DNA of 64,000 nucleotides from Eledone cirrhosa (Eukaryota): positions 328,600,001-328,664,000 of the forward strand of contig OZ024742.1 in NCBI GenBank assembly GCA_964016885.1, read 5' to 3'. The position numbers were made by a program, and so were the translations under genes. Numbering within the stretch: position 1 is the first letter of the stretch; every line of letters starts with the position of its first letter. The notes under the pieces were generated by a model. That model made no database searches and had not been told where the DNA came from. It was given only the letters and a program-made list of their open reading frames with translations. Below are positions 8,171 through 64,000 of the stretch, in pieces.

Positions 8171-9178
8171 ATGTGTCTTTAAAATAGTTTTTGTTGTTAT
8201 ATATTTATTCAAACATTGACTGATTAAGCACTTAATACTGGTGGGTAGAGTATAGAAATTTATTTTCTAAGTATAAGAGTGACAGCGATTTTGGTCGTTT
8301 CAATCCGTAACTAGTCTCTGTGATTATTTCCCCTATGACGTAGAGGTTCGACAAAAAAGGTATCGGTAAAATAAGTTCCAGGCTTGAAACAATATGCACT
8401 GAAATCAGCAACAGACCAAGACACAGTGGTGTAACTAGCCTTTAAAGCCAGTGGGGGGGGGGGGCAAATTCGATCTAAAGGGGGCCCCACCAATTCCATA
8501 CGCTCATTTCCATCGGCTGCAAGGAAATATGTTCATTCACGCATATAGAATAGATAATAATTTATAATAGAGTAGACAGCATCATAGATTACAGAGTTAG
8601 CATGTTCCGTGAAAACTGTATTAACTGCGAAGACGGGGGTCTATCTTCAGGAAAAAAAACAACATCCAATAAAACTAGTTTACAATCGATTATTCACCAA
8701 CAAACATTCGTATGTACAACAGATTGTCCATCTAAAACTTTACTTTCACATTCGAGCACATCACTATAGTTCTAATTTGCGATGTTTTACTTTAGAAAAT
8801 ATTTAAATCACGATGCTGAAGTCAATTTTTTCAACGAGTTTTCGCTCTATGTACATCATTGCCAGAGCATTCAACCGCTCTTCACTCATCGTACTACGCA
8901 AATAATTCTTTATCAGTTTGAGCCTGCTGAAGGTTCGCTCAGCCTGCGCCGAACTAACCGGAATAGTTATGGTATAAGGCAAACACGTTCGGATAGGCTC
9001 TATCTAAGTCATTAGAAATCATAAACGGAACGATCTCAGAAATCGATATGGATTTATCTAAACACACTTCCTTGTAAAAATCTTTGAATGATAAATACTC
9101 GTCGAAGATAGTGTCATTTTCGATGTCACCCTTTCAACGTCACCCTTTCGATGTTCCTTAAGGGTTAAAAAAAAAATG

Positions 9179-10878
9179 TAACCCTTGGGGAACATATGTT
9201 CAAATTTAATGGAAAAACATATGCCCAAGAGGAGGTAGCAGCCATTGGTGTTAGCATTGCAGGCGACATAGCTAACCTATTCATGGTATGGTGGGACAGT
9301 AGACTTAAACTTAAACTTAAAGAACAATTATAAGACCCCTTAACCCTGATAATGTACTCCCGCTACGTTGATGATATAAACATCGTAGTTAAAACACCCC
9401 CACTAGAGAACAGTCAGGAATTAGAGAAAAACACAATGGAAAGCATCCAGCAAATAGCTAACTCCATCCACCAGAGTATTAGAGTTACTATAGACTACCC
9501 AAGCAAACACCCCAACCATCGATTACCTGTACTAGACACAGAGCTCTGGTTAGATACCATTAATAAGAAAAAACAAATCCTCCATTCCCATTATACCAAA
9601 CCCATGTCTTCCAAATATCTGATCCACCGAAACTCAGCTGTTTCGGACCATACCAAAATCAACATACTGATTGCGGATTTGGTACGGGTGATGAGAAACG
9701 GGTCCCGCATGTGCAACCCCGAAGAACTAGAGAGACACATACAACACTTCATCCACCGTATGCAGTTCTCTGGTTACAATTAGAGAGATAAAATCAGAGT
9801 GTATAGAGGAGCCAGAACCAAATGGGAAACAATGGTAAATAATGACACAAATGGGACCTGCCCCTTGTATAGGAGCAAATTTTGGAATAGAATAGAAAGA
9901 ACTAGGAATAAGGCTAATAGAATAAACTCATGGTATGATAGCAATAAATACCATCGATACAACCCCTAGAGGTGAATTAGCTTACAAATTTAGAAGGGCC
10001 CTAGATAAACATAAACTCAATATTAAGATAGTAGAAAGACCAGGTACCTCCATAAAAACACTTATTAGCAAGACATACCCTTTTCAAAGACCTCCCTGTA
10101 TAGATAAGAAATGTATAATCTGTAAATTAAGCCCCCATATTAACTGTAAAACTAGAAATGTAGTATATAGCATAAGATGTACTGAAGGACAATGTAGAGA
10201 TAAAAATATAGTGTACATAGGTGAGACAGCACGTAGTATAGGGGAACGGATAAATGAACACTGGCGAGACCTTCAAGATAGTAAAGAATCATCTGTACTC
10301 TATCAACATGCTAAAATAGAACATAAGGGTAAATTAGAGAACATAGAAATAAAAATAGAATCTACACACAGAAAAGACGCAATGTTTAGACAAATCGCAG
10401 AGGCAATAAACATAAGTGAATTACAACCAAAATTAAATAGAAAACATGAGTGGAACAGCAACATCACAACTTACAATTAAGGACAAAATGAAAACACACA
10501 CGCACATAGAACAAACAACCAACCAGTAACATGTAAATAAACAAATAAATAAACGAATATAAACACACACAGACACCCGGATGTAACACGTGCGAAAACT
10601 AAGCACACAACACACACACAAAAACAAGATGGCGTAGGACAGAACAAAGGAGAGGCACAAAAAACAAAGAAAAGAATCCCCAGTCACTGAAGAGGTAACA
10701 TAATGTGTGACGAAAGAACTTTGACAATATATAAACAACCATCTGGTTGTGGAACCAACCAACCAACCGGAAATTTATAAATTCCTAAATTTATAAATTT
10801 ATTATAATAAATTGAAGTGAAAGCAAATGGTGCGTGTGTTTCTTATTGGCAACATGACCCTCCCAAAGTATACCAATG
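9179..10878 (+). mobile_element. PLE family A, 5'-truncated degenerate copy (RT C-terminus, GIY-YIG, pLTR)
   Basis: SRYVDD at 9358 and NVVYSIRC..YIGETAR. Colinear with 21505-23340, with stops and a deletion. Confidence 0.95.
10683..10725 (+). ncRNA. Minimal type I hammerhead ribozyme in PLE-A pLTR (core intact)
   Basis: gtca-CTGAAGA-g-stem II (gtaaca..tgtgac)-GAAA-gaac-TT-tgac; stem I is gtca/tgac. Confidence 0.75.
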
Positions 10879-10880
10879 TA

Positions 10881-11072
10881 TAATAAATGTGAAGACTAAA
10901 ATCCGAAGAGGGCTCGATAACGATAATATATATATAATAGATATAAAACAGTAGAGCAAATATTTATTAAAATAACAGATTAAAGTTTAAGCTTTCACCC
11001 TTAACAGGATCTTCAGAAGATTCCGCTAAGAGTAAAGCAGTGATTCTTTGCTTATCCTTAATCTGTTATTTG
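10881..11072. mobile_element. Small non-coding fold-back element with a hammerhead-like core (second copy at 50185-50340)
   Basis: 10881-11016 is the reverse complement of 50188-50340. The minus strand reads CTGAAGA-T-CCT-gttaa-GGG-T-GAAAGC. 11014-11072 is an inverted partial copy. Confidence 0.6.
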
Positions 11073-11286: not shown

Positions 11287-11608
11287 ATTGAAAAAATGGA
11301 GAATAACATGGTCAACAGTACAAACAAGGGGATTTATTTACAGTCCAACAATTGTTTCACTGATAAAAATGTCTAAAAATTGCTGAACACTAGAAGCAGT
11401 GCCATTCAATTTTAGATACGATGTTAGCTCGATCAGATCTACTACAGTTTCTGAAGATCTGATCGAGCTATTATCATATTTAAAATTGAATGGCACTGCT
11501 TCTAGTGTTCAGCAATTTTTAGACATCTTTATCAGTGAAACAATTGTTAGACTGTAAATAAATCCCCTTTTTTGTACTGTTGAACATGTTATTCTCCACT
11601 TTTTCAAT
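11287..11608. repeat. Imperfect palindrome with ~150-bp arms (fold-back non-autonomous element)
   Basis: 11287-11440 is the reverse complement of 11456-11608; (TA)n follows. Confidence 0.9.
11443..11556 (+). ncRNA. Type I hammerhead ribozyme with a ~67-nt loop 2
   Basis: tacagttt-CTGAAGA-T-CTGAT..ATCAG-T-GAAA-CAATTG-TT-agactgta; 8-bp stem I with one G.U pair, palindromic loop 3. Confidence 0.75.
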
Positions 11609-11796
11609 GATATATATATATATATATATATATATATTGAAAATTACGATTCGTGCTCTCAAATAGCGATGTATACATGCATAGCATATTTGGCAATATA
11701 CTGTATGCTTAATTAAAAACATTTTGAAGACCTTGTGCTATTATTTTAAAGTAGTGACTAACTCACTTACTTCTTTTTTCAACAAACAAAGGGAAA

Positions 11797-11842
11797 TAAG
11801 CTGACAGATCTGTTTCACACTGTTGGTGATCATCAGAGCTTA
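11797..11842 (-). ncRNA. Type I hammerhead ribozyme, family X (complete)
   Basis: taagct-CTGATGA-T-CAC-caaca-GTG-T-GAAA-CAGATCTG-TC-agctta: perfect 6-bp stem I, GUC cleavage triplet, palindromic stem/loop 3. Confidence 0.9.
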
Positions 11843-12098
11843 GCACTCGCCGATGCCTGTTGAAAATTATAGATGCTGGATTCTTATAGTAATAATCAGG
11901 AACTGATTATACAGAGCGATTGCCGGTCCCACAAAAAATGTCAACTAGGATTGGTGCTCTGAAATAGCGATGTATACATGAATACATGTATAGTATATTT
12001 GGCAATATACCGTATGCTTAATTAAAAACATTTTGAAGACCTTGCGGAATTCTATAAGAATCCAGCATCTATAATTTTCATCATGCATAGGCGAGTGC

Positions 12099-12144
12099 TA
12101 ATCTCTGATGATCACCAACAGTGTGAAACAGATCTGTCAGCTTA
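12099..12144 (+). ncRNA. Type I hammerhead ribozyme, family X (inverted arm)
   Basis: Same core as 11797-11842 with one stem I mismatch. Confidence 0.85.
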
Positions 12145-12250
12145 TCTCCTTTTGTTTGTTGAAAAAAGAAGTAAGTGACATAGTCACTACTTTAAAATAA
12201 TAGCGCAAGGTCTTCAACATGTTTTTAATTAAGCATACAGTATATTGCCA

Positions 12251-12346
<96 letters not shown>

Positions 12347-17269: not shown

Positions 17270-19283
17270 TTTCTGAATTTGTTTAGCAAGATTCTTTATC
17301 TGAAATCGTGTGTTGAAACCGATATTGTTATACTTTGTGAGGGTCATGTTGCCAATAAGAAACACACGCACCAGTTGATTTCACTTCAATTTATTATATA
17401 TCTATAAATTTATAAATTTACAAATTTACAAACCTATAAATTTCTGGTTGGTTGGCTGGTTCCACAACCAGATAGTTGTTTATATATAGTCATAGTCCCT
17501 TCGTCACACACTCTGTGACCCCCCAGTGACTGGGGACCCCCCTCTTTGTTCCTGTGCCTCTCCTTTCTTCTATCCCACGCCATTCTGTTTCTGTGTGTGT
17601 GTTGTGTGCTCAGTTTGCGCATGCGCCACATCCGGGTATCTGTGAGTGTTTGTGTTCATTTATCTATTTGTTTATTTATTTATTTATTTATTGTTGGTTG
17701 GTTGTTTGTTCTATGTGTGTGTCTGTGTTTTCATTTTGTCCTGTGTGTGTTTTCATTTTGTCCTTAATTGTAAGTTGTGATGTTGCTGTTCCACTCATAT
17801 TTTCTATTTAATTTTGGTTGTAATTCTTTTATGCTTACTGCCTCTGCAATTTGCCTAAACATTGCATCTTTTCTGTGTGTGGATTCTATATTTATTTCTA
17901 TGTTCTCTAATCTACCCCTGTGCTCTATCTTTGCATGTTGGTAGAGCACAGATGATTCTTTATTATCTTGGAGGTCTCGCCAGTGTTCATTTATTCGTTC
18001 CCCTATACTACGAGCTGTCTCACCTATGTACACTATATTTTTGTTTCTACATTGTCCTTCAGTACATCTTATGCTATACACTACATTTCTAGTTTTACAG
18101 TTAATATAGGGGCTTATTTTACAGGTTATACATTTCTTATCTATACATGAGGGTCTTTGGAACGGGTATGTCTTGCTAATAAGTGTTTTTACGGAGGTAC
18201 CTGGTTTTTCTACTATCTTAATATTGAGTTTATGTTTATTTAGGGCCCTTCTAAATTTGTAGGCTAGTTCGCCTCTAGGGGTTGTATTGATGAACATTAC
18301 ACTCTGGTATTTATTGCTATCATACCATGAGTTTATTCTATTAGAAAGACCAGGTACCTCCGTAAAAACAGTTATTAGCAAGACATACCCGTTCAAAAGA
18401 CCCTCATGTATAGATAAGAAATGTATAACCTGTAAAATAAGCCCCCATATTAACTGTAAAACTAGAAATGTAGTGTATAGCATAAGATGTACTGAAGGAT
18501 AATGTAGAAACAAAAATATAGTGTACATAGGTGAGACAGCTCGTAGTATAGGGGAACGAATAAATGAACACTGGCGAGACCTCCAAGATAATAAAGAATC
18601 ATCTGTGCTCTACCAACATGTAAAGATAGAGCATAGGGGTAGATTAGAGAACATAGAAATAAAAATAGAATCCACACACAGAAAAGATGCAATGTTTAGG
18701 CAAATTACAGAGGCAGTAAGCATAAAAGAATTACAACCAAAATTAAATAGAAAATATGAGTGGAACAGCAACATCACAACTTACAATTAAGGACAAAATG
18801 AAAACACACACAGGACAAAATGAAAGCACACACACACACATAGAACAAACAACTTACAATTAAGGACAAAATGAAAACACACACAGGACAAAATGAAAAC
18901 ACACACACACATAGAACAAACAACCAACCAACAATAAATAAATAAATAAATAAACAAATAGATAAATGAACACAAACACACACAGACACCCGGATGTGGC
19001 ACATGCGCAAACTGAGCACACAACACACACACAGAAACAGAATGGCGTGGGATAGAAGAAAGGAGAGGCACAGGAACAAAGAGGGGGGTCCCCAGTCACT
19101 GGGGGGGGGGGGTCACAGATTGTGTGACGAATGGACTATGACTATATATAAACAACTATCTGGTTGTGGAACCAGTCAACCAACCAGAAATTTATAGGTT
19201 TGTAAATTTGTAAATTTATAAATTTATAGATATATAATAAATTGAAGTGAAAGCAACTGGTGCGTGTGTCTCTTATTGGCAAC

Positions 19284-22200
19284 ATGACCCTCCCAAAGTA
19301 TAACAATATCGGTTTCAACACACGATTTCAGATAAAGAATCTTGCTAAACAAATTCAGAAACGAAATATCGTAAGCCTTAGCCAGGCTAACAAGATACTG
19401 AAAACCACCATGTTCTGTTGTCTACGAAAAACCATAACATCTCGACAACTGCACTTCATAAAACTAAAGTGGCTTAAACAGGCAAAGCTAAATCGGGATA
19501 CTATAGAGTATACCAATAGATATCCCGACAAAATTGACGGTATCAACATGGCCGACACCTCATTATCAGAAGAGTTCAACAACGAAAATACCAACATTTA
19601 TGGAAACACGGAAATAGATAATAATGAAATGTCTGTGTTATGTCTGCCGCCCAAATTTGCGACATTCAAGAAGGTAAATATGATTAGTTGTCTGTCAGAA
19701 ATAGAAAAATCATTTACAAAACTACGCTGGAGCATCAAAAACAAAAGCAACAATATACGCACACACATATACAACACACATCCCAACAACAACAGACACA
19801 CAGACACAAACAACAATAACAATAAAACACACATCAACAACAACAACAATAGCAACATACCCAGATACAACAACAACAGACACGCAGACACAAACAACAA
19901 TAACAACACACAGAACAACGATAACACACACGGAGACAACAATAACAACAACACACACATCAACAACAACAACAATAGCAACATACCCAGATACAACAAC
20001 AACAGACACGCAGACACAAACAACAATAACAACACACACAACAACGATAACACACACGGAGACAACAATAACACACAACAACAACACACATCAACAACAA
20101 CAACACACACGCATTCAATGCCTCTCACCACCACCACAATCTTAACAAACACACATACACAGAAAACAAGTAATGACAGTAGCACAGAAATTAGAGAAAT
20201 AAGGGAAGGAAATAGGATTAAAAGGAAAAGGAGATGGGAGACTAAGGACAAAGAGAATAACGAAGACGAACACACAGACACACAAAATAGGGTAGATAAC
20301 AACATTGAGCCAGTGGAAAGAGACAGGAGTAATTATGAGAGACATAGAAACAAACATGAGGCTGTTGGTAGAAATAGAAATAGAAACAACACAACTAACA
20401 ATAATAATAGCACTAGTACATTTAAAGCAGCAGCCTGGAACTCTCCGTTTTATAACCCCTCCGATAAATCATTCGACCTACGACGAGTTCACGCCACGAC
20501 TTACCCATTTAACAAACGCACGCAGTTGCCGTCGCAGGTCGATGAACAAACAGAAGCACAATTTAGTATAGCTAAATCCGAACTTAGAAATATTATAGAA
20601 CAGTATAGCAAGAAGCATAATAGAATAGAGGCCCAGCAACTGGGAGAAAAATCTGCAAATGGCTTGCGTAAGTTCATGCAGCGCTCGCGTAATGGAGAGA
20701 TAGCATGTTTTCCAACAGACAAGTCTGGCAGAATGTCGGTTGACAGCCTGCCAAACTACATCCAGGCAATGCAACCCCACATCACTAACACAAGAGAGGT
20801 AACACCACAGGAGCATGAGGATAGAGAAAAAGCCGTCAATGCCCATATGGTGATGTGGACGAATATAATGCAGCCCAACAAAAGGACTGCCAACAACTTC
20901 CAGGCCTGGAACAATGACGTGCCGGCGTTGTATGGGCTTCGAAAAGACCATAAAACGGGCTGGGACCCTGTCGCGGGACCACCAACACGGCCAGTCTGTG
21001 GGGCTAACATTGCTAGTAACTACAGACTGTCCTACTTCCTCTCCCTGATCATACGCCCCATCATTGAGTTGTCCCCAGACGTATGTGACAGCACGGAGGA
21101 CCTCCTCAGCAGAATCGGCGCGGGTAACCGATCTGGGGACCTAACAAACTGCATAATAGGCAGTATCGATGTTGTGTCCCTGTATCCATCTATTGACGTG
21201 GATTTTGCTGTGGAGAAATGCGTAGAAATGATCAGCGAGAGCAAGGTTGAGTTCCGTGGGATTGATAACAGTGAGCTGGGACTTCTACTTAAGCTTACCC
21301 ATAGTAATAGTTACCTAGACACTTATGACCTTAGCAACCTGTGCCCTACAAGACCAGCAAGAGGCAGACCACCTACCATTACCTCAATGGCCAAGAAAAC
21401 CCACACAGTTAGATGGAACGGGTGGACCAGAGCCATACGGACACCCGAAAACCACGATGAACTGAAGAAAATGATTGCACATGCGGTAGGGGCCAGCATA
21501 AAATTAACCCTTAAGGAACATATGTTCAAATTTAATGGCAAAACATATGCCCAAGAGGAAGGAGCAGCTATTGGTGTTAGCATTGCAGGCGACATAGCTA
21601 ACTTATTCATGGTATGGTGGGATAGTAGACTTAAACTTAAACTTAAACTTAAAGAACAATTAGAAGACCCCTTAACCCTGATACTGTACTCCCGCTACGT
21701 AGATGATATAAACATCGTAGTTAAGACATCCCCACCAAAGAACAGCCATGAACTAGAGAAAAATACAATGGAAAGCATCCAGCAAATAGCAAACTCCATC
21801 CACCAGAGCATTAGAGTTACTATAGACTACCCAAGTAGACACCCCAACCATCGATTACCTGTACTAGACACAGAGCTCTGGTTAGATACCATTAACAACC
21901 AAAAACAAATCCTCCATTGCCATTATGCCAAACCCATGACTTCCAAACATCTGATCCACCAAAACTCGGCCATTTCGGACCATACCAAAATCAACATACT
22001 GATTGCGGATTTGGTACGGGTGATGAGAAATATGTCCCGCATGTGCAACCCCGAAGAACTAGAGAGACACATACAACACTTCATCCACCGTATGCAGTTC
22101 TCTGGCTACAATCAGAGAGATAGAATCAGAGTGTATAAAGGAGCCAGAACCAAATGGGAAAAAATGGTAAATAATGACATAAATGGGACCTGCCCCTTGT

Positions 22201-22826
22201 ATAGGAGCAAATTTTGGAATAGAATAGAAAGAACTAGGAACAAGGCCAATAGAATAAACTCATGGTATGATAGCAATAAATACCAGAGTGTAATGTTCAA
22301 CAATACAACCCCTAGAGGCGAACTAGCCTACAAATTTAGAAGGGCCCTAAATAAACATAAACTCAATATTAAGATAGTAGAAAGACCAGGTACCTCCGTA
22401 AAAACACTTATTAGCAAGACATACCCGTTCCAAAGACCCTCATGTATAGATAAGAAATGTATAACCTGTAAAATAAGCCCCCATATTAACTGTAAAACTA
22501 GAAATGTAGTGTATAGCATAAGATGTACTGAAGGACAATGTAGAAACAAAAATATAGTGTACATAGGTGAGACAGCTCGTAGTATAGGGGAACGAATAAA
22601 TGAACACTGGCGAGACCTCCAAGATAATAAAGAATCATCTGTGCTCTACCAACATGCAAAGATAGAGCACAGGGGTAGATTAGAGAACATAGAAATAAAA
22701 ATAGAATCCACACACAGAAAAGATGCAATGTTTAGGCAAATTACAGAGGCAGTAAGCATAAAAGAATTACAACCAAACTTAAATAGAAAATATGAGTGGA
22801 ACAGCAACATCACAACTTACAATTAA
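19284..22826 (+). CDS. Penelope-like polyprotein: N-terminal domain, Asn-rich spacer, reverse transcriptase, Cys linker, GIY-YIG endonuclease
   Basis: Uninterrupted frame with TDKSG, LYGLRKDHK..RPV, DVVSLYPSI, QEEGAAIG, SRYVDD, LPVLD, CIDKKCITC and VVYSIRC..YIGETAR..RINEH. The ATG at 19284 (MTLPKYNNI) is conserved in family B. Confidence 0.93.
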   Translation: MTLPKYNNIGFNTRFQIKNLAKQIQKRNIVSLSQANKILKTTMFCCLRKTITSRQLHFIKLKWLKQAKLNRDTIEYTNRYPDKIDGINMADTSLSEEFNNENTNIYGNTEIDNNEMSVLCLPPKFATFKKVNMISCLSEIEKSFTKLRWSIKNKSNNIRTHIYNTHPNNNRHTDTNNNNNKTHINNNNNSNIPRYNNNRHADTNNNNNTQNNDNTHGDNNNNNTHINNNNNSNIPRYNNNRHADTNNNNNTHNNDNTHGDNNNTQQQHTSTTTTHTHSMPLTTTTILTNTHTQKTSNDSSTEIREIREGNRIKRKRRWETKDKENNEDEHTDTQNRVDNNIEPVERDRSNYERHRNKHEAVGRNRNRNNTTNNNNSTSTFKAAAWNSPFYNPSDKSFDLRRVHATTYPFNKRTQLPSQVDEQTEAQFSIAKSELRNIIEQYSKKHNRIEAQQLGEKSANGLRKFMQRSRNGEIACFPTDKSGRMSVDSLPNYIQAMQPHITNTREVTPQEHEDREKAVNAHMVMWTNIMQPNKRTANNFQAWNNDVPALYGLRKDHKTGWDPVAGPPTRPVCGANIASNYRLSYFLSLIIRPIIELSPDVCDSTEDLLSRIGAGNRSGDLTNCIIGSIDVVSLYPSIDVDFAVEKCVEMISESKVEFRGIDNSELGLLLKLTHSNSYLDTYDLSNLCPTRPARGRPPTITSMAKKTHTVRWNGWTRAIRTPENHDELKKMIAHAVGASIKLTLKEHMFKFNGKTYAQEEGAAIGVSIAGDIANLFMVWWDSRLKLKLKLKEQLEDPLTLILYSRYVDDINIVVKTSPPKNSHELEKNTMESIQQIANSIHQSIRVTIDYPSRHPNHRLPVLDTELWLDTINNQKQILHCHYAKPMTSKHLIHQNSAISDHTKINILIADLVRVMRNMSRMCNPEELERHIQHFIHRMQFSGYNQRDRIRVYKGARTKWEKMVNNDINGTCPLYRSKFWNRIERTRNKANRINSWYDSNKYQSVMFNNTTPRGELAYKFRRALNKHKLNIKIVERPGTSVKTLISKTYPFQRPSCIDKKCITCKISPHINCKTRNVVYSIRCTEGQCRNKNIVYIGETARSIGERINEHWRDLQDNKESSVLYQHAKIEHRGRLENIEIKIESTHRKDAMFRQITEAVSIKELQPNLNRKYEWNSNITTYN
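19740..20420 (+). repeat. (AAC)-rich in-frame low-complexity region with an internal 120-bp duplication
   Basis: THINNNNNSNIPRYNNNRHADTNNNNNT occurs twice. Confidence 0.85.
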
Positions 22827-23123
22827 GGACAAAATGAAAACACACACAGGACAAAATGAAAACACACACACACATAGAACAAACAACTTACAATTAAGGA
22901 CAAAATGAAAACACACACAGGATAAAATGAAAACACACACACACATAGAACAAACAACCAACCAACAATAAATAAATAAATAAACAAATAGATAAATGAA
23001 CACAAACACACACAGACACCCGGATGTGACGCATGCGCAAACTGAGCACACAACACACACACAGAAACAGAATGGCGTGGGATAGAAGAAAGGAGAGGCA
23101 CAGGAACAAAGAGGGGGGTCCCC

Positions 23124-23175
23124 AGTCACTGGGGGGGGGGGGGGTCACAGAGTGCGTGACGAAAGGACTATGACT
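23124..23175 (+). ncRNA. Inactivated hammerhead (CUGAAGA changed to CUG(G)n) in the 3' pLTR; same at 19094-19143 and 17488-17531 (minus)
   Basis: Stems agtca/tgact and gtcac/gtgac are retained while the core is a G run of 14, 12 or 6 G. Confidence 0.75.
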
Positions 23176-23500
23176 ATATATAAACAACTATCTGGTTGTG
23201 GAACCAGCCAACCAACCAGAAATTTATAGGTTTGTAAATTTGTAAATTTATAAATTTATAGATATATAATAAATTGAAGTGAAAGCAACTGGTGCGTGTG
23301 TTTCTTATTGGCAACATCACCCTCCCAAAGTATAACAATATATATATATACCTATCTATCTATTTATCTGTCTCTCTCTATCTATCAATCAACCTATCTA
23401 TCTATCTATATTTCTCTCTCTCCCTCTCTTTGTCTCCCTCTCCCTCTCTCTCTCTATCTCTCTGTCTGTGTGTGTATGTGCATATGTTTATGTATATATA

Positions 23501-25177: not shown

Positions 25178-25357
25178 GAGTACGTGGGGCTGATGAAAGC
25201 CAACCAGCGTGAAAGAGACTGTCAGTTTCTCTCCCTTCTTTCGCCGAAAAGAAGTAAGGGACAGGCACTACATTGAAACTGATAGCGTTTGATTTCTAAA
25301 TGTTTTTAATTAAACATTCGGTGTATTGCCAAATATACTATACATACATTCATGTAT
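25178..25357 (+). mobile_element. Family X fragment with hammerhead motif at 25184-25229
   Basis: CTGATGA-a-agc-caacca-gcg-T-GAAA-gagactg-TC-agtttc, followed by the same downstream sequence as 12145-12250. Confidence 0.75.
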
Positions 25358-25362
25358 ATATA

Positions 25363-26099: not shown

Positions 26100-26117
26100 A
26101 TACATATATATATATAA

Positions 26118-26385
26118 GGATTGTGCTCTGAAATAGCGATGTATACATGAATGTATGTATAGTATATTTGGCAATATACCGTATGTTTAATTAAAAACAT
26201 TTTGAAGACCTTGCGCTATCATTTTTTAAAGTAATGAATCTGTCAGCTTCTCTCCCTTCTTTTGCCGAATAAAGAAGTAAGTGACATAGTCACTTCTTTA
26301 AAAATGATAGCGCAAGGTGTTCAAAATGTTTTAAATTAAACATACGGTATATTGCCAAATAAACTAAACATACATTCATATATCT
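26118..26385. mobile_element. Family X fold-back fragment
   Basis: 26118-26235 matches 11948-12045 and 11653-11745; 26238-26385 is in the opposite orientation. Confidence 0.85.
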
Positions 26386-26391
26386 ATATAT

Positions 26392-27332: not shown

Positions 27333-30300
27333 TTCTTTTATTTGCCACCAGGGCATCAAAAGTGGGCAAGTACAAAGGGGGGGGGGAGTTTACACAAAAA
27401 GGCGTCCTCAATAAGGAGGAGGCAATAATAAAATATAAAAATAAAATAAAATATAACAAAAAATAAAATTTATAACAAAATCCTCAATAGAGAGAAGGCG
27501 CCTTGGGGGGTCGCACACACCCCCGAAAAAAGTGTGCAACCCTTTTCCTCAGGAGCACAGAGAGGGGGTGCTCCCTCGTTCCTTCCTCCTTTCCACCTAC
27601 AGGCTTATGTAAAGAGAAGGCCCATTCACACGGGCCATTCTTGCCACTTTCACCCACCTTTCATAAAAACGACTGGGGTGGAGCACCTCTCTCTCCATCC
27701 TGATCCTTCTTCCGAAATGATATCGGAAGAAACGGACCAGTTGTTGGCCAGAGAGAAAGGTGCCTGACCTCAGTCCTTTCAGACGCGTCCACCATACAAC
27801 CTCTTTCGCCATGGCTATTACGCAGAGAAACACCGCCTCTGCTTCATCTTTGAAGGGGGGAGGCGGCTTGATCATTACAATAGACTCGGTGGTCAACCGG
27901 ATCGGTCCCACCCTTGACAGCAGTTGTTCGACATAGCCCCACAGATTGGCTACGCCCGAGCAGTGTACCAATGCGTGTGCAACGGTTTCCTCGTCGCACA
28001 CGCATCTGGGACAGATCTTTTTGGCGGGGTCCCTACCCGGGCGCCCGTGTCTGTAGAGCCTTTCTCGAACGGGTAAAGCCCCTCGGTAGCACTGCCAGGC
28101 CAGGGACTTCTGGAAGTTGTCCATAGGTCCCGGGCTGAATGTCCTACCGAACAGGCTGGCCATTTTGTCCTCCTCCATGTCTAGGGCTTCTCCGAGGGCG
28201 TCGTCGCACCTGCTGCGTACCAGCCCTCTATAGAATGTTGCGGTGGAGTCTCCACTGATAACCGGATCCGCCTGCCAGAGGGCGGTGAGCGCCTGGGCAC
28301 ACTCAGTGTGCCAGGCGCCCAGTTTTCTCGGTCTTTGCTTGACCCAGGATTGCAGCTCGGTGAGTGAGACGAGTCTGGGAAAGGTTCGTCTCACAAACGA
28401 GGCCCACACCGGTTGACCGGTGAGGAATACGTAGAGGTGCCGTAGCCTTAATGCGTGTTTACGCATCATTAGCCACGGCATCCCCAGCCCTCCTTTCGAA
28501 GGGTGTTGACAGCAGATGGATCTCCTCACCATAGGAGCCCGCCTCTTCCAAAGGAATTGGAAGAGTGCGCGCTCCATCTTGGTGAGGGTTTCCCTTGGGC
28601 AGGGCACTACGGTCAGGCGGTAGTAGATGACGGACGCTATGTAGGTGTTCGCCACCTCCGCCCGACCTTTCAGGGATAGTTTGCAACTGGCCCACTTCTG
28701 GGTCAGTGCAAACACCCTGTTCGTAACCTCCGCCCAGTTTTTCTCCACCTGGAGGTCCGGTCCGAACCAGACCCCGAGCAACTTCACCGGGCCCTCCGTC
28801 CAGCGTCCGACGACGCCATCGGAGGGCATCGGTCTGCCCCTCCACGTGCCGAGTTGCAAACCGATTGACTTGTCCCGGTTCAGCTTAGTCCCTGTGAACT
28901 TTTCGTACTCCTCCAGTAAGGTGCCGACCGCCTCGATTTCGGAGGCCGTCGACACCATTACCGTCACGTCATCGGCGTAGGCCGACACCGCTTTCCGCAA
29001 TCCCGGTTCCAAAGGGATGCCCTGCAACAACTCCAACTTCCGCAGTAGTGGCTCGAGAGTCAACACATACAGAAGGGAGGAGAGAGGGCACCCTTGTCGG
29101 ATGGACCGCGCGATTTTGAACGGCTCCGAGAGGTAGCCGTTCACCTTTACCCTAGAGCAGATGCGGCTGCTGTGCATAGCAGTGATCCAGCCCCTGAAAA
29201 CGGGTCCGAAGCCTGCCGCCGCTAGCACCGCATCCAGGTAACCATAGTCGACCCTATCGAACGCCTTAGATTGATCCAAGTTGATCAGAGCCCCACCAAA
29301 GCCGGGTTCGTTCCCAACCCTCTCTATGATGTATCGCATGAGGTGGAGGTTATCGTGGATGGACCTGGACGGGATAGCACATGTCTGCGCATCTCCCACC
29401 AGGTTGCCCACGACAAGCGCCAACCTCTTTGCTAGCACCTTGGCCAAAATCTGTAACTCTGTATTTAGCAGAGTTATGGGCCTGAAGTTACTTATTTCGT
29501 CCCCCTTGTTCTCGTCCTTCCTCACTAGCATGACTACGCCCTTGGTCACAGTACAGGGAATTCTCCCGTTCTGTTGCCAGTTGCAGTAGACCGCCTCGAG
29601 GAGATTGGGGAACAAGTCCGGCATAGCTAGATATAATTCGTAAGGAAGACCATCGAGACCCGGGGATTTGCGTTTGCCGCATTGGCTCAGCACGTCCTCT
29701 ATCTCAGCGGCCGAAATCGGCTCCTCGCAGGACTTCGCCTCCCTGTCCGAGAGGCGCGGCAGGCCGTCGAGATATGGACCGAAGTCCACGTTCCCAACCG
29801 GCTCCCCGTCCCTCCCGAACAGTCGGGCAAAGTGCCTTTGAAAGGCCTCACACATCTGCTTAGGCTCAAGAATCGCCCGTCCATCCAGGTCTCGCAAAGA
29901 CCGGATGGTGGATTTAGTTCCACTGTTGGCCTCTGTCACGCGGGCCCAGCTAACAGCTTTGGTCCCCTCGTTCTCTAGAGCACGTATTTTACTTCGGACA
30001 ACGCAGCCTTCGTGCTTCGCGTCGAAAAACTGGCTCAAAGCCGTTCTCGACGCTAGCACTCTGGCCACGTCGCCGCTTCTAATAGCCTCTTCTACTCTAT
30101 CTATTAGCTCCCTTTCCTTCCTATTCCTATCCGCAGCTAGAACCTTACTAAATTCTATCGAGACTACTCTAATCTCTCTCTTTAGAGATACCCACCACCT
30201 GCTGTTGACGATCGCTCCAGTCAACCGTTCCGTAACTAACGTAATAATCCGATCCCTGTAGGCTCTACTTGCCGGCAAGGACAAGTTGAGCTTCCAGTAA

Positions 30301-30898
30301 CCGGGGCCCTGTCTATGCGTTCTATCAAGGTTGACCATGCAGGTCACCAACTTGTGGTCTGAATAGCCAACCATGAGCATTTCTGAACAACTTAAAAAGT
30401 CCCTGTCCTTATTTCTAACTAAAAATCTATCTAGGTACGACCTAGATGATCCGCTGCGATTTGACCAAGACCAGGTTGGCACCGTCGGAAAATCTAGTCG
30501 AAATCTATCGGCCAGGTCAAATCGGCCGAGTAACCCCTTGAGGCTGTTGCACCCCTCTCTATCGGGACATGCCCCTGCATAGTCCCAACGTGCATCCAGG
30601 ATACCATTCCAATCCCCCACTAAAAGCAGGGAACGGGACGTCCCTAGAAAAGACTCCAGACGCTGGAAAAAGTCGGGCCGCTCAGTCCCAAAAGGGGCAT
30701 ATGCGGCTACCAGCCTAAAGGCTCTACCTTCACCACTGCCAAGGTCCAGCACCACCAGTCGACCCCCTGGGTCCAAGTGAACTATCTGTGTTGCAAGGCC
30801 CATATGTTTTTTCAGCAGAACGACAACCCCACCCCCACCTCCGGGCTGACAGAGAGATGCGTGCATCTCAAAGTCGTCAAAGGTGGGGGCTAGCTGTA
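27333..30898 (-). mobile_element. L1/Tx1-clade LINE, 5'-truncated, with an 11-bp candidate TSD
   Basis: GC-rich insert. 3' end GCCCTGGTGGCAAATAAAAGAAA. GATAGATATGT at both 27322-27332 and 30899-30909. Confidence 0.93.
27597..30866 (-). CDS. L1/Tx1 ORF2: APE endonuclease (N-truncated), RT, C-terminal Cys/His zinc knuckle
   Basis: VGDWN, SYLDRF, SDHK, GPGYWKLN, KSPGLDG, NFRPITLLN, DQSKAFD, RQGCPLS, AYADD, CPRC..ETVAHALVHC; no stops in 1089 codons. Confidence 0.93.
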   Translation of the reverse strand: MHASLCQPGGGGGVVVLLKKHMGLATQIVHLDPGGRLVVLDLGSGEGRAFRLVAAYAPFGTERPDFFQRLESFLGTSRSLLLVGDWNGILDARWDYAGACPDREGCNSLKGLLGRFDLADRFRLDFPTVPTWSWSNRSGSSRSYLDRFLVRNKDRDFLSCSEMLMVGYSDHKLVTCMVNLDRTHRQGPGYWKLNLSLPASRAYRDRIITLVTERLTGAIVNSRWWVSLKREIRVVSIEFSKVLAADRNRKERELIDRVEEAIRSGDVARVLASRTALSQFFDAKHEGCVVRSKIRALENEGTKAVSWARVTEANSGTKSTIRSLRDLDGRAILEPKQMCEAFQRHFARLFGRDGEPVGNVDFGPYLDGLPRLSDREAKSCEEPISAAEIEDVLSQCGKRKSPGLDGLPYELYLAMPDLFPNLLEAVYCNWQQNGRIPCTVTKGVVMLVRKDENKGDEISNFRPITLLNTELQILAKVLAKRLALVVGNLVGDAQTCAIPSRSIHDNLHLMRYIIERVGNEPGFGGALINLDQSKAFDRVDYGYLDAVLAAAGFGPVFRGWITAMHSSRICSRVKVNGYLSEPFKIARSIRQGCPLSSLLYVLTLEPLLRKLELLQGIPLEPGLRKAVSAYADDVTVMVSTASEIEAVGTLLEEYEKFTGTKLNRDKSIGLQLGTWRGRPMPSDGVVGRWTEGPVKLLGVWFGPDLQVEKNWAEVTNRVFALTQKWASCKLSLKGRAEVANTYIASVIYYRLTVVPCPRETLTKMERALFQFLWKRRAPMVRRSICCQHPSKGGLGMPWLMMRKHALRLRHLYVFLTGQPVWASFVRRTFPRLVSLTELQSWVKQRPRKLGAWHTECAQALTALWQADPVISGDSTATFYRGLVRSRCDDALGEALDMEEDKMASLFGRTFSPGPMDNFQKSLAWQCYRGALPVRERLYRHGRPGRDPAKKICPRCVCDEETVAHALVHCSGVANLWGYVEQLLSRVGPIRLTTESIVMIKPPPPFKDEAEAVFLCVIAMAKEVVWWTRLKGLRSGTFLSGQQLVRFFRYHFGRRIRMEREVLHPSRFYERWVKVARMARVNGPSLYISL

Positions 30899-31139
30899 GA
30901 TAGATATGTATAAATATATGTCCCAGGATAGATGCATCGATAGGTAGATATAGGTAGATGTTTTTTGACTCATGGATATCTTTTCAACTCTGTTTTGTGA
31001 GAAAGAGGTGGAGAGTTAGCTATAAAAGTGCCTCTTCTTAAACAAAACTTGCACAATGTTGTCATGTGACTCTTGCGTTTTATTATAACATATAGATGGG
31101 TCGGTGTATGTATTTTGAATTGTGTTTGTGTGTATGTGT

Positions 31140-35500: not shown

Positions 35501-36538
35501 TGAATTTAAGAATTCTGGTTGAGGGTAAGCAAAGAAAAAGTGTATAGGATGTTGATTAAGTGACAATGAGAGGATGAGAGCTAAGAGGTTCAGGAGTGTG
35601 AAGAAATGAATAATATGGGAGAAATATAACAGGTATAAGGGTGGACAAAGGTAGAGCGATGGTGTAGTTTTGAAGGGCGTTAACATGTATCATGGTACGA
35701 CAACCAGAGATACCAGAGTGTCATGTTTGTGGACGCTACCCCTGGAAGGAAATTAGCTAACCAGTGTAGAAAGGCCCTGAGAAAGACCCACTTAAAGATT
35801 AAGGTGGTAGAAAAGCCAGGAACCACCATAAAATCCCTGATCAGCAAAACCTACCCTTTTAAGAAAACCGACTGTACTAATAGGAAATGTATCATATGTA
35901 AGGTAAACCCCCGGATAAACTGTAAAACTAGAAACGTAGTCTATAGCATAATATATACAGAGGGTACTTGCAGAATCATGACAACAACATACATAGGCGA
36001 GACAGCTCGTAGCATAGGTGAAAGGATAGACCAACACTGGGGGGAACTAAAAGGACGAAAAAACGGTTCAGTGCTATACGAACATGCTAGACCACAACAC
36101 GACGGTAACATAGACAACATAGAAATTAGAATAATATGTAAACATAGAAATGACCCAACAGATAGGCAAATCAGAGAGGCCAGTGAAATAGAACTTAGAA
36201 GGCCAAGGCTAAACTGAAAAAATGAATGGTATAACAACAACACCCAAACAAACAAGACTGACTTAAGAGAAGTATAAATAAATAAATAAATAAATAGTTA
36301 AATAAATAAATACATACACAAGCACAATAACAACAAACACATATAAACACACACTAGTAAAGATAGAATACATTAACCAATACACAGTCACCCAAACACG
36401 AACACACGTCAAACAAAACACTATACACACACGCAAACGCATGCGCAAAGAAGACAAAAAAAAAACAAATAAATAAATATATAAACAAACTAAATAAAGA
36501 TGGCGTAGACATAGAATGCAACGGGAGGAAACAATAGC

Positions 36539-36580
36539 ACCACTGACGATGTTGCAGATGTGCAACGAAAGAATTTTGAT
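36539..36580 (+). ncRNA. Minimal hammerhead in PLE-B 5' pLTR
   Basis: CTGACGA-T-GTTGCA-gatg-TGCAAC-GAAA-gaat-TT; weak stem I. Confidence 0.7.
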
Positions 36581-36759
36581 AGACTAATATATGTGTTTGT
36601 GTCTATATTGTATCTGTATTTTTGACCGTTGGTCAGTCAATGGCAACATTGAGGACCGAATACATTAGATTACTGATATAAAAGACACAGAAGCGAAAAG
36701 CGAAAACCAACCAAACAGTGAGTGTGTTCTGTTATTAATTCTGGAAATATTACACAAAT

Positions 36760-39700
36760 ATGACCCTCCCCAAGTATAACAATATTTGTTTCGACACACG
36801 ATTTCATATCAAAAACCTCGCAAAACTAATTCATCGCCGTTATGGCATTAGCTTGTGCCAAGCTTAAAGGTTATTGAAAGACACTGTTTTCTGTTATATA
36901 AAAACGACAATAACAACAGAACAAATCCGCTTCTTAAAACACTCTGTTTCCTCCAAAATATACACAACAAACATATCAAAACAAGTAAATAATTTATTAT
37001 TGGACAAGACACAAGCTGAACGACTAAAACACACAATAACAGTTAATATGAAAAGAACAACATACACAAAAGTCAACGAACTTTACAGACAGAAACGCAT
37101 TAACGGTAAGGAAGCCGAAATCTCACCACACCAAACGAGAGGGGTGACTTCATGAGCGTCATTCGACGTGAAACGAAATACGCCCGAAACGAATACAATA
37201 GGCATTTCAATAAGAAATTAGAATGGATGAATAAAAAAAAACTAGAAGAAAGAAAAATAGAATATTCTCAAAAATACCCAGATGACATCAACAATATCCG
37301 TATGACTGATGTAAAACTACCGGAAGAATTTACCAATGACCACACAGTAAATATTTATGGGAACACTTTAATCAGTGAACAAGAACAACATATCCTGCAG
37401 CTACCACCAACATTTGCTATCTACAAAAATATTAACCCTATTGAGTGCAAAACGGAGCTGGAAAAGTGTTTCACAAAAATACGTTGGAAAGTAAACAACA
37501 ACAACAACTATACGGACAACAACAACAATAATAACGGTAGTAGTAATATAAACAATAACTCTGAGTATAGAAATAACAGCTATAATAGTAATAGTCATAA
37601 CAATAACAATAGCAGGAGAGTGAGAAATAGTATTAATGGTAATAATATTAACGATAGACAGAACAACAACAACAACAACCACAATAATAATTGTTTCTAC
37701 TATTGGCACAAGGCCAGAAAATTACCCAGTACATTACTGGTACTTTATTTTATCGACCCCGTAAGGATGAAAGGCAAAGTTAACCTCGGCATAATAATAA
37801 TAATAGAAACATTAACTACAGATACAGCAGCAACGACGACAGTAGTAATAACGGTAACAATACGAATAACAACAACAACAACCACAGTGGTAATAATAGA
37901 AATAATACATGTAGCACATTAATGATAAACACAACAAAAACAAGAAACATAATAAAAGTAACAACCACAATGGTAGAAATAACAGTAAAAACAACAATAA
38001 CGGCGGAGAAAACAACAACAATACATCTAACAATCACAGCAACAATACATCTAGCAATCATAACACCAATACATCTAACAATCACAGCAACAATACATCT
38101 AGCAATCATAACAATAATAATAATGCTAATGATAGGAACAACAACAACCACCATAATAACAATAATAGCAACACACACAACTATGACGATAGATATAATG
38201 AAAACCCCTTAGAGAAACTATTCTTCAACCCAGCTGACAAAACATATAAGATGGGTAATATCTATTCTACGAGGTTACCCTTTAATAAAAGAGTTTGCAT
38301 ACCACAACAAATAGATGACGAGACAGAGGCACAGTTCACCATAGCTAGAAATAAGATTAGACAAATAGTAGACCAGTATACTAAGAGACAGAGCAGACCA
38401 GAGGTCCAACAACTTGGGAGGAAACATGTAGAAGGCTTGGTTAGCCTCAAGCAGCTCACAAGGGATGGTGAGGTAGTATGTCTACCCACGGATAAGTCTG
38501 GTAGGATGTCAATAGAGAGTATGCCGAACTACATCAAGGCTATGCAACCCCACATCACCCACACGAGTGAAATTGCACAGCAAATACATGATGGGAGAGA
38601 GAAAATCCTTAACGCTCACATGATGATGTGGACCGACATCCTAAAGCCAAGCAGACGCACTGCCAATAACTTCCAGGCGTCTAACAATGGCATACCACCC
38701 TTGTATGGGCTCCGCAAAGACCACAAGACAGTCGACGACCCGACAACAAGACCCGTATGCGGTGCAAATATAGCTAGCAACTACAGGATCTCCTACTTCC
38801 TCTCAATGGTTATACGCCCCATAATCAAAATGTCCCCAGATGTATGTGACAGTACAGAGGACCTCCTCAGCAGAATCATTGAGTGCAACAAAAACAGGAA
38901 CCTATCCAACTGCATAATAGGCAGCATGGATGTGGTATCACTGTAACCATCCATTAACATTGATTTTGCTGTGTTAAAATGTGAGGAGATGATCATTGAG
39001 AGTGAGGTGGAGTTCTGTGACGTCGACACAGACGAACTGGTCCTCCTACTTAGACTTACCTACGACACTGACTACCTAGACAGCCATGACCTTAGACGTT
39101 TCTGCCCCAGTAGACCCATAAGACGTAGACCCCCCACCATAACCTCAATGGCTAAAAGGACTCCCATGGGAAGGTGGATTGGGTGGACCAAAGCTATACG
39201 GAACCCCAAAAACAATGATCAGGTAAGAAAAATGGTCGCACATGCAATAGGGGCTAGTATCAAAACTACCCTAAAGGGCCACATATTCAAGTTCAACGAG
39301 AAGATCTACGCCCAAAATGAGGGAGCAGCCATTGGCGTCAGCATAGCTGGTAACGTTGCCAACCTTTTTATGGTATGGTGGGAAAGGAGACTTAAAGATC
39401 TCCTTGATGAGAGCTCCATAGACCTCATCATATACTCTCGTTACGTAGACGATATCAATATAGTAATAAGAACATCCCCACAAGAGAACACTAACAAGTT
39501 TAGAACGTAGCACAATAGAAAGCATCCAGCAGATATCTAATTCCATACACCAGAGTATAACTGTAACTATCGACTACCCTTCAAAACACCATAACAATAG
39601 ACTACCTGTATTAGACACGGAACTCTGGATTAACACTATAGACGAGAGAGCCCAAATTCTTCACTCACACTATGCTAAACCCATGGCCTCCAAATACCTG

Positions 39701-40581
39701 ATACTCAAAACTCAGCAATGTCCAGTAGTGCTAAGTTTAATATTCTGATCGCAGACTTGGTACGAGTGATGAAGAACGTGTCCAGCATGTGCGACCCAAC
39801 AGAAATGGAAAGACACATCCAACATTTCATCAACCGCATGCAGTTCTCTGGCTACAACCAAAGAGACAGAGTCAGAGTATACGAAGGAGCCACGGAGAAG
39901 TATAAGACCCTCATAGAACTGGACATGAAAGGAATTTGCCCATTATACAGGAGCAAATCATGGAATAGCTTAGATAGGGCAAGACATAAGGTAGGAAAAG
40001 CCACCTCATGGTACGACAACCAGAGATACCAGAGTGTCATGTTTGTGGACGCTACCCCTGGAGGTAAATTAGCTAACCAGTGTAGAAAGGCCCTGAGAAA
40101 GACCCACTTAAAGATTAAGGTGGTAGAAAAGCCAGGAACCACCATAAAATCCCTGATCAGCAAAACCTACCCTTTTAAGAAAACCCACTGTACTAATAGA
40201 AAAGTTATCATATGTAAAGTAAACCCCCGGATAAACTGTAAAACTAGAAACGTAGTCTATAGCATAAGATGTACAGAGGGTACTTGCAGAATCATGACAA
40301 CAACATACATAGGCGAGACAGCTCGTAGCATAGGTGAAAGGATAGACCAACACTGGTGGGAATTAAAAGGACGAAAAAACGGTTCAGTACTATACAGACA
40401 GGCTAGACAACAACACGATGGTAACATAGGCAACATAGAAATTAGAATAATATCTAAACATAGAAATGACGCAGTATATATACAAATCTGATAGGCCAGT
40501 GAACAGAACTTAGAAGGCCAAGGCTAAATAGAAAAAATGAATGGAATAACAACAACACCCAAACAAACAACACTGACCTAA
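36760..40581 (+). pseudogene. PLE-B RT plus GIY-YIG ORF, disrupted by frameshifts, stops and a SINE
   Basis: MTLPKYNNICFDTRF, TDKSG, LYGLRKDHK, SMDVVSL, SRYVDD and YIGETAR occur in successive ORF pieces. Confidence 0.92.
37690..37790 (-). mobile_element. Truncated SINE inserted in the (AAT) tract of the PLE-B ORF
   Basis: Nearly identical to 7000-7100. Confidence 0.85.
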
Positions 40582-40851
40582 GAGAAGTATAAATAAATAA
40601 ATAAATAGTTAAATAAATAAATACATACACAAGCACAATAACAACAAACACATATAAACACACACTAGTAAAGATAGAATACATTAACCAATACACAGTC
40701 ACCCAAACACGAACACACATCAAACAAAACACTATACACACACACTAACGCATGCGCAAAAAAGACAAAAAAACAAAACAAATAAATAAATATATATACA
40801 GACTAAATAAAGATGGCGTAGACATAAAATGCAACGGGAGGAAACAATAGC

Positions 40852-40893
40852 ACCACTGACGATGTTGCAGATGTGCAACGAAAGATCTTTGAT
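40852..40893 (+). ncRNA. Minimal hammerhead in PLE-B 3' pLTR
   Basis: CTGACGA-T-GTTGCA-gatg-TGCAAC-GAAA-GATC-TT; palindromic GATC loop 3. Confidence 0.8.
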
Positions 40894-41193
40894 AGACTAT
40901 ATATATGTGTTTGTGTCTATATTGTATCTGTATTTTTGACCGTTGGTCAGTCAATGGCAACATTGAGGACCGAATAAATTAAATTAACCGATATAAAAGT
41001 CACAGAAGCGAAAAGCGAAAACCAACCAAACAGTGAGTGTGTTCTGTTATTAATTCTGGAAATATTATACAAATATGACCCTCCCCAAGTATAACAATAT
41101 TTGTTTCGACACACGATTTCATATCAAAAACCTCGCAAAACTATATATATATATATATATTAGAAAATGTGTGAGATCCTTGGTACAGTTAGG

Positions 41194-41487: not shown

Positions 41488-41855
41488 ATTAGGATTGGTT
41501 CTCTGAAATAGCGATGTATATATGAATGTATGTATAGTATGTTTGGCAATATACCGTATGTTTAATTAAAAGCATTCTGAAGACCACACGCTATCGGTTT
41601 TAAAGTAGTGACTATCTCACTTACTTCTTTTCGGCGAAAGAAGGGAGAGAAGCTAACAGTCTGTTTCACGCTTTTTGGCGATCATCAGTGCCACGCACTC
41701 CCTGCTCCCGCCGAAAATTAAAGAAGCTGGATTCTTATAGAATTCCAGTAATAATCGGGAGCTGATTATAGAGAGCGATTGCCGGTCCAGCAAAAATTAG
41801 GTATTAGGATTGGTGCTCCGAAATAGCGATGGATACACTCGCAATATACCGTATG

Positions 41856-41862
<7 letters not shown>
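41488..41862 (-). mobile_element. Family X element: one ~315-bp unit plus a partial second, hammerhead at 41650-41693
   Basis: TAGGATTGGT..GAAATAGCGATG at 41490 and 41805. The minus strand reads CTGATGA-T-CGC-caaaaa-GCG-T-GAAA-CAGACTG-TT. Confidence 0.85.

Positions 41863-41904
<42 letters not shown>

Positions 41905-59504: not shown

Positions 59505-64000
<4,496 letters not shown>

What the first reader, a model, noticed from the sequence alone, without database searches (positions are those of the whole stretch)
11647..12251. Family X: ~300-bp tandem unit with a textbook hammerhead and stem II covariation
Seen: unit period is ~301 bp here and ~315 bp at 41.5 kb, with no RT coding between repeats. 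Stem II is CAC/GTG here but CGC/GCG at 41.67 kb, a compensatory double change. Four loci occur within 30 kb. Inference: RNA structure was under selection in the master elements, making this the best retrozyme candidate in the window.
Basis: partly seen in the sequence, partly recalled or inferred. Interest (0 to 1): 0.75.

Follow-up and report, generated by a model that had tools for sequence, protein, structure and literature searches.

The report
Aged two-armed hammerhead retrozyme copy
This stretch is one older copy of a protein-free jumping repeat with thousands of copies in this animal genome; its predicted self-cutting RNA fold has been kept through paired mutations across five subfamilies, and its back-to-back layout suggests it was likely pasted in by a Penelope-type retrotransposon enzyme, probably from a small RNA circle.

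Summary
The feature is real, but 11638-12251 is not a tandem dimer. It is one two-armed insertion in a TA/CA microsatellite: 1.3 units on the minus strand, back to back with 0.65 unit on the plus strand. The family unit is about 316 bp; 301 here reflects two 8-bp deletions. The family has thousands of loci and five subfamilies (63-89% identical). Across them 7 of 8 hammerhead pairs change on both sides, including the core pair C3-G8 to U3-A8, and helix III stays palindromic in four, so selection on ribozyme structure in the source elements is well supported. None of 126 loci is the end of an RT/endonuclease gene. Two fixed 3' ends, diverging arms and (TA)n targets match Penelope-like insertion. 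A young sister subfamily forms arrays of one haplotype each, one of them unique to a 20-unit locus, which favours rolling-circle copying. This copy itself probably cannot make a circle. Cleavage, expression and the partner enzyme are untested. Verdict: a new member of the known non-LTR retrozymes; the scan already noted the young 310-nt subfamily and its two-armed arrays elsewhere in this genome.

The parts
11638..12046 (-). Left arm of the insertion, subfamily A: a 5'-truncated partial unit (about 11948-12046) followed by one full unit with two 8-bp deletions; its 3' end is the long (tailed) end, here running about 13 nt past the usual end point
11797..11842 (-). Predicted type I hammerhead, intact: helix I UAAGCU/AGCUUA, core CUGAUGA at 11836, helix II U.U + CAC/GUG with loop CAACA, GAAA, palindromic helix III ACAGAUCUGU, GUC with C17 at 11803
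11776..11866 (-). Long extension of helix I around the ribozyme; covaries across subfamilies
12046..12251 (+). Right arm: inverted, 5'-truncated partial unit (0.65 unit), 95% identical to 11691-11889; it stops some 25-30 nt before the usual short end; 1-nt overlap with the left arm at 12046
12099..12144 (+). Second hammerhead copy: core at 12105, GUC with C17 at 12138; core and helices II/III intact, one mismatch in helix I
11610..11637 (.). (AT)n target microsatellite at the left end
12252..12344 (.). (AC)n then (AT)n microsatellite at the right end
25178..25361 (+). Single 5'-truncated family copy with a damaged hammerhead (core at 25190), between microsatellites
26117..26387 (.). Small two-armed family insertion (minus arm 26117-26281, plus arm 26238-26387); both arms are truncated at or after the ribozyme, so there is no core
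41490..41868 (-). Subfamily B copy, 1.2 units; hammerhead core at 41688, helix II CGC/GCG, GUU triplet, non-palindromic helix III, mismatch at the first helix I pair

Best explanation
The stretch is one two-armed copy of a non-coding, 311-319-bp dispersed repeat family with a covarying type I hammerhead fold, and it was likely written into a (TA)n tract by a borrowed Penelope-like reverse transcriptase/endonuclease, probably from a circular RNA monomer. Inferred cycle: source loci with two or more same-strand units are transcribed; neighbouring hammerheads pair through the palindromic helix III, cut at NUH and release a monomer; a host ligase closes it; a Penelope-like protein cuts both strands of (TA)n DNA and primes at two fixed sites some 20-35 nt apart on the RNA; each cDNA runs round the template and stops at random; the two cDNAs are joined at their truncated ends, giving diverging arms with one long and one short outer end. 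Shown here: anatomy, copy numbers, covariation, fixed ends, target, no attached ORF, one haplotype per young array. Inferred from published systems: cleavage, dimer mode, circularisation, identity of the enzyme. This copy has only one ribozyme per strand and a read-through RNA is predicted to fold into a 200-bp hairpin that buries it, so it is probably a dead offspring.
For: Covariation; by hand on the tree at least 10 independent double-sided changes among five subfamilies against one broken pair (U.U in A and B). U3-A8 cores have 1,027 exact genome matches. Within subfamily A, of 100 listed of 101 exact cores, one helix II pair is C-G in 41, U-A in 55, U.G in 4, C.A in 0 (hand count). Helix III is a perfect palindrome of different sequence in A, C, D, E, as in dimer-cleaving type I hammerheads (PMC4209133, part 1 read). 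Whole monomers fold better than shuffles as circles (sense z -2.6 to -6.8) and 18 of 54 consensus pairs show a double change. Anatomy: 46 of 85 older loci are two-armed, all 46 diverging, 35 of 46 with one long and one short end (hand count), 72 of 85 with (TA)n at an end; 22 of 26 young arrays are two-armed and all 22 have one long and one short end. The autonomous Penelope-like family in the window shows the same two fixed ends in (TA)n, and a purified Penelope-like protein cuts and extends both strands and starts at two internal RNA sites (PMC11167929, parts 1-2 read). Rolling-circle signs: in 26 arrays (233 full units) every variant is either in all units of both arms or in one unit only; one haplotype fills 20 units at one locus and no other array (the six other hits are on other backgrounds); arm 5' ends are not enriched at the cleavage site (2 of 44, 2.4 expected).
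Against: No cleavage or expression data. In the one in vitro Penelope system the hammerhead was not needed and uncleaved RNA was the main template (PMC11167929). The second variant tested for privacy is shared by many arrays (819 matches), so only 1 of 2 tests points to a single-molecule template, and a donor array could be missing from the assembly. In five further arrays one variant occurs in two units three apart, and two short older arrays are mixed. At the finding itself the two arms are no closer to each other (95.0%) than to the best other copies (96.5-97.0%) and share only one difference from the subfamily majority. No partner element shares sequence with the family, and the window's Penelope tail is 60 nt, not 20-35. 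Subfamily B spread with GUU, a non-palindromic helix III and a weak helix II. Antisense monomers also fold better than shuffles (z -2.6 to -4.4). The number of pairs with a double change was not above shuffles for the core alone (151 of 500).
Confidence: 0.72

Rival explanations
1. Same non-autonomous Penelope-mobilised element, but the template is a linear, uncleaved multimeric transcript of an existing array; the ribozyme serves another step (transcript end formation or control) and no circle is copied.
For: Hammerhead mutants did not affect insertion in vitro and unprocessed RNA was the main substrate (PMC11167929, part 2). Most haplotypes occur in many arrays, so homogeneous arrays could copy homogeneous donors. 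Older subfamilies have short insertions (median 1.65 units).
Against: One haplotype fills 20 units in two arms at one locus with no donor array in the assembly; no ordered pattern of variants recurs between the 26 arrays; the catalytic C3-G8 pair is kept by a compensatory change.
Confidence: 0.18
2. The unit is the pseudo-LTR of an autonomous Penelope-like element and the copies are its 5'-truncated insertions.
For: Insertion anatomy (partial tandem, inverted copy, tail, microsatellite target) is that of Penelope-like elements (PMC8557442 passages); vertebrate retrozymes are related to pseudo-LTRs (bioRxiv 10.64898/2026.07.22.740005, parts 1-3 read). Only 30 of at least 10,597 GIY-YIG candidates were inspected.
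Against: In the 60 best-hit loci nothing beyond the unit is shared; upstream of a unit lies the end of the previous unit; 0 of 126 loci continue a coding region; none of 30 GIY-YIG loci ends in the unit; helix II is 4 bp, not the 7-8 bp of pseudo-LTR minimal hammerheads (PMC4209133).
Confidence: 0.06
3. A satellite or foldback DNA repeat amplified at DNA level; the hammerhead is a relic passenger.
For: Tandem arrays exist; single copies do carry core mutations (23 of 1,144 core positions).
Against: Identical arrays on many chromosomes with two fixed ends and random inner truncation; the youngest subfamily has the longest arrays; neighbouring units do not share variants in 26 arrays; compensatory changes in all three helices and the core.
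Confidence: 0.04

Closest known systems
Metazoan non-LTR retrozymes of coral, mussel and axolotl (Cervera and de la Pena 2020, PMC7229834; parts 2-4 of 6 read)
   Same: 150-450-bp non-coding repeat, low GC, type I hammerhead per unit, tandem copies; axolotl HHR_Amex2 also has U.U at the base of helix II; palindromic helix III with dimer cleavage; proposed copying of circles into tandem cDNA by a Penelope-like RT.
   Different: New sequence family; mostly dispersed two-armed insertions with two fixed ends, which the parts read do not describe; five subfamilies with a core U3-A8 switch; cleavage and circular RNA not shown here.
Vertebrate non-LTR retrozymes as non-autonomous Penelope derivatives (Li, Clavereau and Pollet 2026, bioRxiv 10.64898/2026.07.22.740005; parts 1-3 of 5 read)
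   Same: Monomer, dimer and multimer copies; co-occurrence with Penelope-like elements; most tested copies there were inactive (1 of 9 cleaved).
   Different: No homologous pseudo-LTR was found for this family; that survey holds no mollusc; this locus fails its criterion for an active copy (two consecutive intact ribozymes).
Penelope-like elements and their pseudo-LTR minimal hammerheads (PMC4209133 part 1; PMC8557442 passages; PMC11167929 parts 1-2)
   Same: Partial tandem plus inverted 5'-truncated copy, optional tail, AT-rich or microsatellite target; U3-A8 core covariation already reported in a Schistosoma Cercyon element.
   Different: No ORF; hammerhead has a 4-bp helix II with a CAA-rich loop, not the minimal type; arrays of up to 26 unit pieces in one insertion.

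Membership tests
Metazoan non-LTR retrozyme | Type I hammerhead motif in the repeat unit | tested here: met
   Core, three helices and NUH present; covariation; Rfam match weak
Metazoan non-LTR retrozyme | Short unit of 150-450 bp, GC under 50% | tested here: met
   311-320 nt, GC 0.33-0.37 for five natural monomers
Metazoan non-LTR retrozyme | Occurs as head-to-tail repeats with two or more ribozymes | tested here: met
   Met for the family; not met at this locus, which has one ribozyme per strand
Metazoan non-LTR retrozyme | Non-autonomous: no RT or other ORF, no LTR pair | tested here: met
Metazoan non-LTR retrozyme | Self-cleavage of the transcript | not testable with these tools
   needs in vitro transcription
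Metazoan non-LTR retrozyme | Expressed as monomeric linear and circular RNA | not testable with these tools
   no RNA holder listed
Metazoan non-LTR retrozyme | Target-site duplication, where present longer than 4 bp | tested here: inconclusive
   ends lie in (TA)n, so a duplication cannot be read
Penelope-like element insertion (works like) | Partial tandem, inverted 5'-truncated arm and optional tail between two fixed 3' ends | tested here: met
   same pattern in the window's autonomous element
Autonomous Penelope-like element (pseudo-LTR of one) | Repeat flanks an RT + GIY-YIG ORF | tested here: not met
   0 of 126 family loci; 0 of 30 GIY-YIG loci out of at least 10,597 candidates
Autonomous Penelope-like element (pseudo-LTR of one) | Minimal hammerhead with long (7-8 bp) helix II | tested here: not met
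   helix II is 4 bp in all five subfamilies

The most novel reading that the evidence does not exclude
One retrozyme lineage has persisted through five subfamilies that rebuilt every ribozyme helix and even the catalytic C3-G8 pair, and its insertions record a Penelope-type enzyme copying a single RNA circle round and round from both ends of a DNA break, the step proposed for animal retrozymes but not shown in the papers read.
Probability: 0.55. Interest if true: 0.7.

Novelty: new member of a known kind. Interest (0 to 1): 0.5.

Why it matters
The class is known, and this copy is probably inert. The value lies in the family. It gives a natural series of five hammerhead variants with compensatory changes, including a core U3-A8 switch, that can be assayed side by side. 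It also ties an old dispersed subfamily to a very young one whose arrays allow a direct test of whether retrozyme circles are reverse transcribed by rolling circle and by which Penelope-like protein. No paper on octopus or cephalopod retrozymes turned up in three searches; that the animal is an octopod is my inference, not a tool result.

Tried and rejected
Rfam over the whole window gave only microsatellite-driven microRNA matches among the 150 rows shown. No RNA holder listed; the three runs of unknown kind from one sample were laid as contigs and say nothing on expression. First privacy pattern was too short and caught two other subfamilies (181 matches); this led to subfamilies D and E. 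Second privacy test failed (819 matches). Search for a donor monomer of the private haplotype among the six other hits found none on the same background. Search for an autonomous partner: no homology to the two window pseudo-LTRs above shuffles, none in 30 GIY-YIG loci beyond one separate insertion and weak AT-rich hits. Idea that the two arms at the finding are provably from one template: not supported at this age. Idea that arms end at the cleavage site, as a linear cleaved template would give: rejected (2 of 44). The permutation P of 1.2e-6 ignores relatedness of subfamilies and is not used as a probability. Subfamily E is out of register by one column in the helix I extension of alignment A1, so undercounts pairing there. 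Minimum-energy folds of the isolated subfamily A ribozyme do not give the active three-way junction, as expected for a weak helix II/III, so folding alone is no proof. R-scape was not available. Supplements of the papers were not read; Supplementary Figure S9 of PMC7229834 and the tables of the 2026 preprint may bear on novelty.

Full report
Setting. The window is G000:C3:328600001-328664000 in a 3.0-Gb assembly, rich in microsatellites. I take it to be an octopod cephalopod from recalled genome features; no call names it.

What is at 11647-12251. Self-comparison shows a direct repeat of period 301 (11647 and 11948) for about 100 bp and an inverted repeat of 199 bp at 95% (11691-11889 against 12052-12250). 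Read on the ribozyme strand, the insertion is a left arm of 1.3 units on the minus strand (11638-12046) and a right arm of 0.65 unit on the plus strand (12046-12251), truncated ends meeting in the middle, 3' ends facing out into (AT)n and (AC)n(AT)n. The unit here is short by two 8-bp deletions against a natural 317-bp copy. Each arm holds one hammerhead: core at 11836 (minus) and 12105 (plus), GUC with C17 at 11803 and 12138. Rfam gives Hammerhead_HH9 as best match but far below its gathering score. The other three window loci are at 25.2, 26.1 and 41.5 kb; all are damaged or lack the core.

The family. Genome searches gave 2,962 and 3,461 candidates for the 11.6-kb and 41.5-kb units, 40 scored each. 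A 17-mer has 18,090 exact matches, control 0. Eighty evenly spaced 10-kb stretches held 4 clear insertions and 1-2 weak ones, about 5 per Mb, so the window is locally enriched roughly tenfold. Clustering 176 distinct near-full units gave five subfamilies, 63-89% identical: A (the finding), B (41.5 kb), C (311 bp, young), D and E. These loci were chosen as best hits or first pattern places, not at random.

Covariation. Helix II reads UCAC/GUGU (A), UCGC/GCGU (B), AUUC/GAAU (C), GUAC/GUAC (D), GCAU/AUGC (E); helix I and its long extension also change in pairs; D and E have U3-A8 in place of C3-G8. In 31 natural copies 92.5% of 359 cells pair (shuffles 80.3%, 0 of 500; slid partners 20-44%), with double changes at 7 of 12 pairs, a count that shuffles often reach (151 of 500); with the extension 14 of 25 pairs (19 of 500). 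At subfamily level 38 of 40 cells pair; by hand parsimony on that call's tree this needs at least 10 independent double changes, with one broken pair. U3-A8 cores number 1,027 exact matches; this variant is known from a Schistosoma Penelope element (PMC4209133, part 1), and the C3-G8 pair is needed for cleavage with rescue by the double mutant (PMC11167929, part 2). Helix III is a palindrome of different sequence in A, C, D and E but not B, which fits cleavage as dimers. Individual copies decay: 23 of 1,144 core positions against 1,345 of 34,134 other positions differ from their majority (biased by how copies were chosen).

Not attached to an RT. The 60 best-hit loci share nothing outside the unit except scattered other repeats. 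Of 126 loci, 17 have Penelope coding sequence in the fetched flank; the nearest same-strand cases (549 and 836 bp) are insertions behind a (TA)n, one of them the terminal (TA)n of another Penelope element. Thirty GIY-YIG loci do not end in the unit.

How it moves. Of 85 older loci 46 are two-armed, all diverging, 35 of them with one long and one short outer end; 72 touch (TA)n; median length 1.65 units. Of 26 young arrays 22 are two-armed, all 22 with one long and one short end. The intact Penelope-like element in the window (ORF 19254-22823) and its relatives also end at two fixed points in (TA)n, 60 nt apart. This is the tail and inverted-copy signature of Penelope-like elements (PMC8557442 passages), explained in vitro by cutting of both strands and two internal start sites (PMC11167929). 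So a Penelope-like enzyme is the likely mover; which one is unknown.

Circle or line. In 233 full units of 26 young arrays each variant is in all units of both arms or in a single unit (19 singletons), never in a subset. One haplotype fills 20 units at C3:221.70 Mb and no other array; the six other genome hits are single or paired units on other backgrounds. Arm 5' ends are spread evenly over the unit. This favours rolling-circle copying of one monomeric circle, the model proposed in PMC7229834 (Discussion). Against: the second variant tested is common, a donor may be unassembled, one further array has a variant in two units, and uncleaved RNA was the preferred template in the only in vitro system.

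This copy. One ribozyme per strand cannot release a monomer, and a read-through transcript folds into a long hairpin that pairs each ribozyme with its antisense copy. It is probably a dead offspring of subfamily A, although both cores are among the 101 exact A cores in the genome.

Novelty. The class, the U3-A8 variant and the Penelope anatomy are each in print. Searches found no cephalopod retrozyme paper, and search 53 none with head-to-head retrozyme arrays. Earlier notes of this scan already describe the young 310-nt family and its two-armed arrays in this genome; I read them after my own analysis and they are not independent support. A look-up by the finding's sequence returned nothing. 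What this report adds is the link of the old 316-bp family to that young one and the five-way covariation. Verdict: new member of a known kind, interest 0.5.

Noticed in passing
window 19254-22823 (+), with repeats 18339-19309 and 22375-23341 and an inverted arm from 17262: Intact 1,190-aa Penelope-like ORF (RT motifs and C-terminal GIY-YIG seen by eye; no Pfam hit for the whole protein, but sister fragments hit GIY-YIG). Its copies end at two fixed points 60 nt apart in (TA)n. Candidate source of enzyme.
   Followed up: partly
window about 35690-41143 (+): Second, broken Penelope-like element about 70% identical to the first, with minimal hammerheads in both repeats (cores at 36543 and 40856); it ends 350 bp before the 41.5-kb family copy.
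   Followed up: partly
window 9173-10882 (+) and 60194-64000: Further truncated copies of the first Penelope-like family; the one at 9-11 kb has a hammerhead-like core at 10687 and ends about 750 bp before the finding.
   Followed up: partly
window 27600-30980 (-): 1,127-aa stop-free frame with AP endonuclease, RT and zf-RVT domains: an apparently intact LINE.
   Followed up: no
window about 11290-11608: A palindromic element of about 300 bp directly left of the finding, unrelated to the family by BLAST; may be a foldback or another two-armed insertion.
   Followed up: no
L132:455-3400 (G000:C11:15.0 Mb): Seven tandem hammerheads at about 482-bp spacing: a different retrozyme-like family. In all, 33 hammerhead-like motifs of several families were seen in 0.8 Mb of sampled DNA.
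   Followed up: no
L291-L295: The same G-to-T change recurs on four different haplotype backgrounds of subfamily C, and 4 of its 6 sporadic cases lie in the outermost unit of an arm; possibly an error hot spot of the first round of copying. Numbers are too small to test.
   Followed up: partly
L049:1890-2182: Subfamily B copy in which the ribozyme segment is inverted inside the unit, suggesting template switching across helix I.
   Followed up: no
L063:5216-5449: Weak two-armed match to the 3' third of the unit; may be a sixth, distant relative.
   Followed up: no
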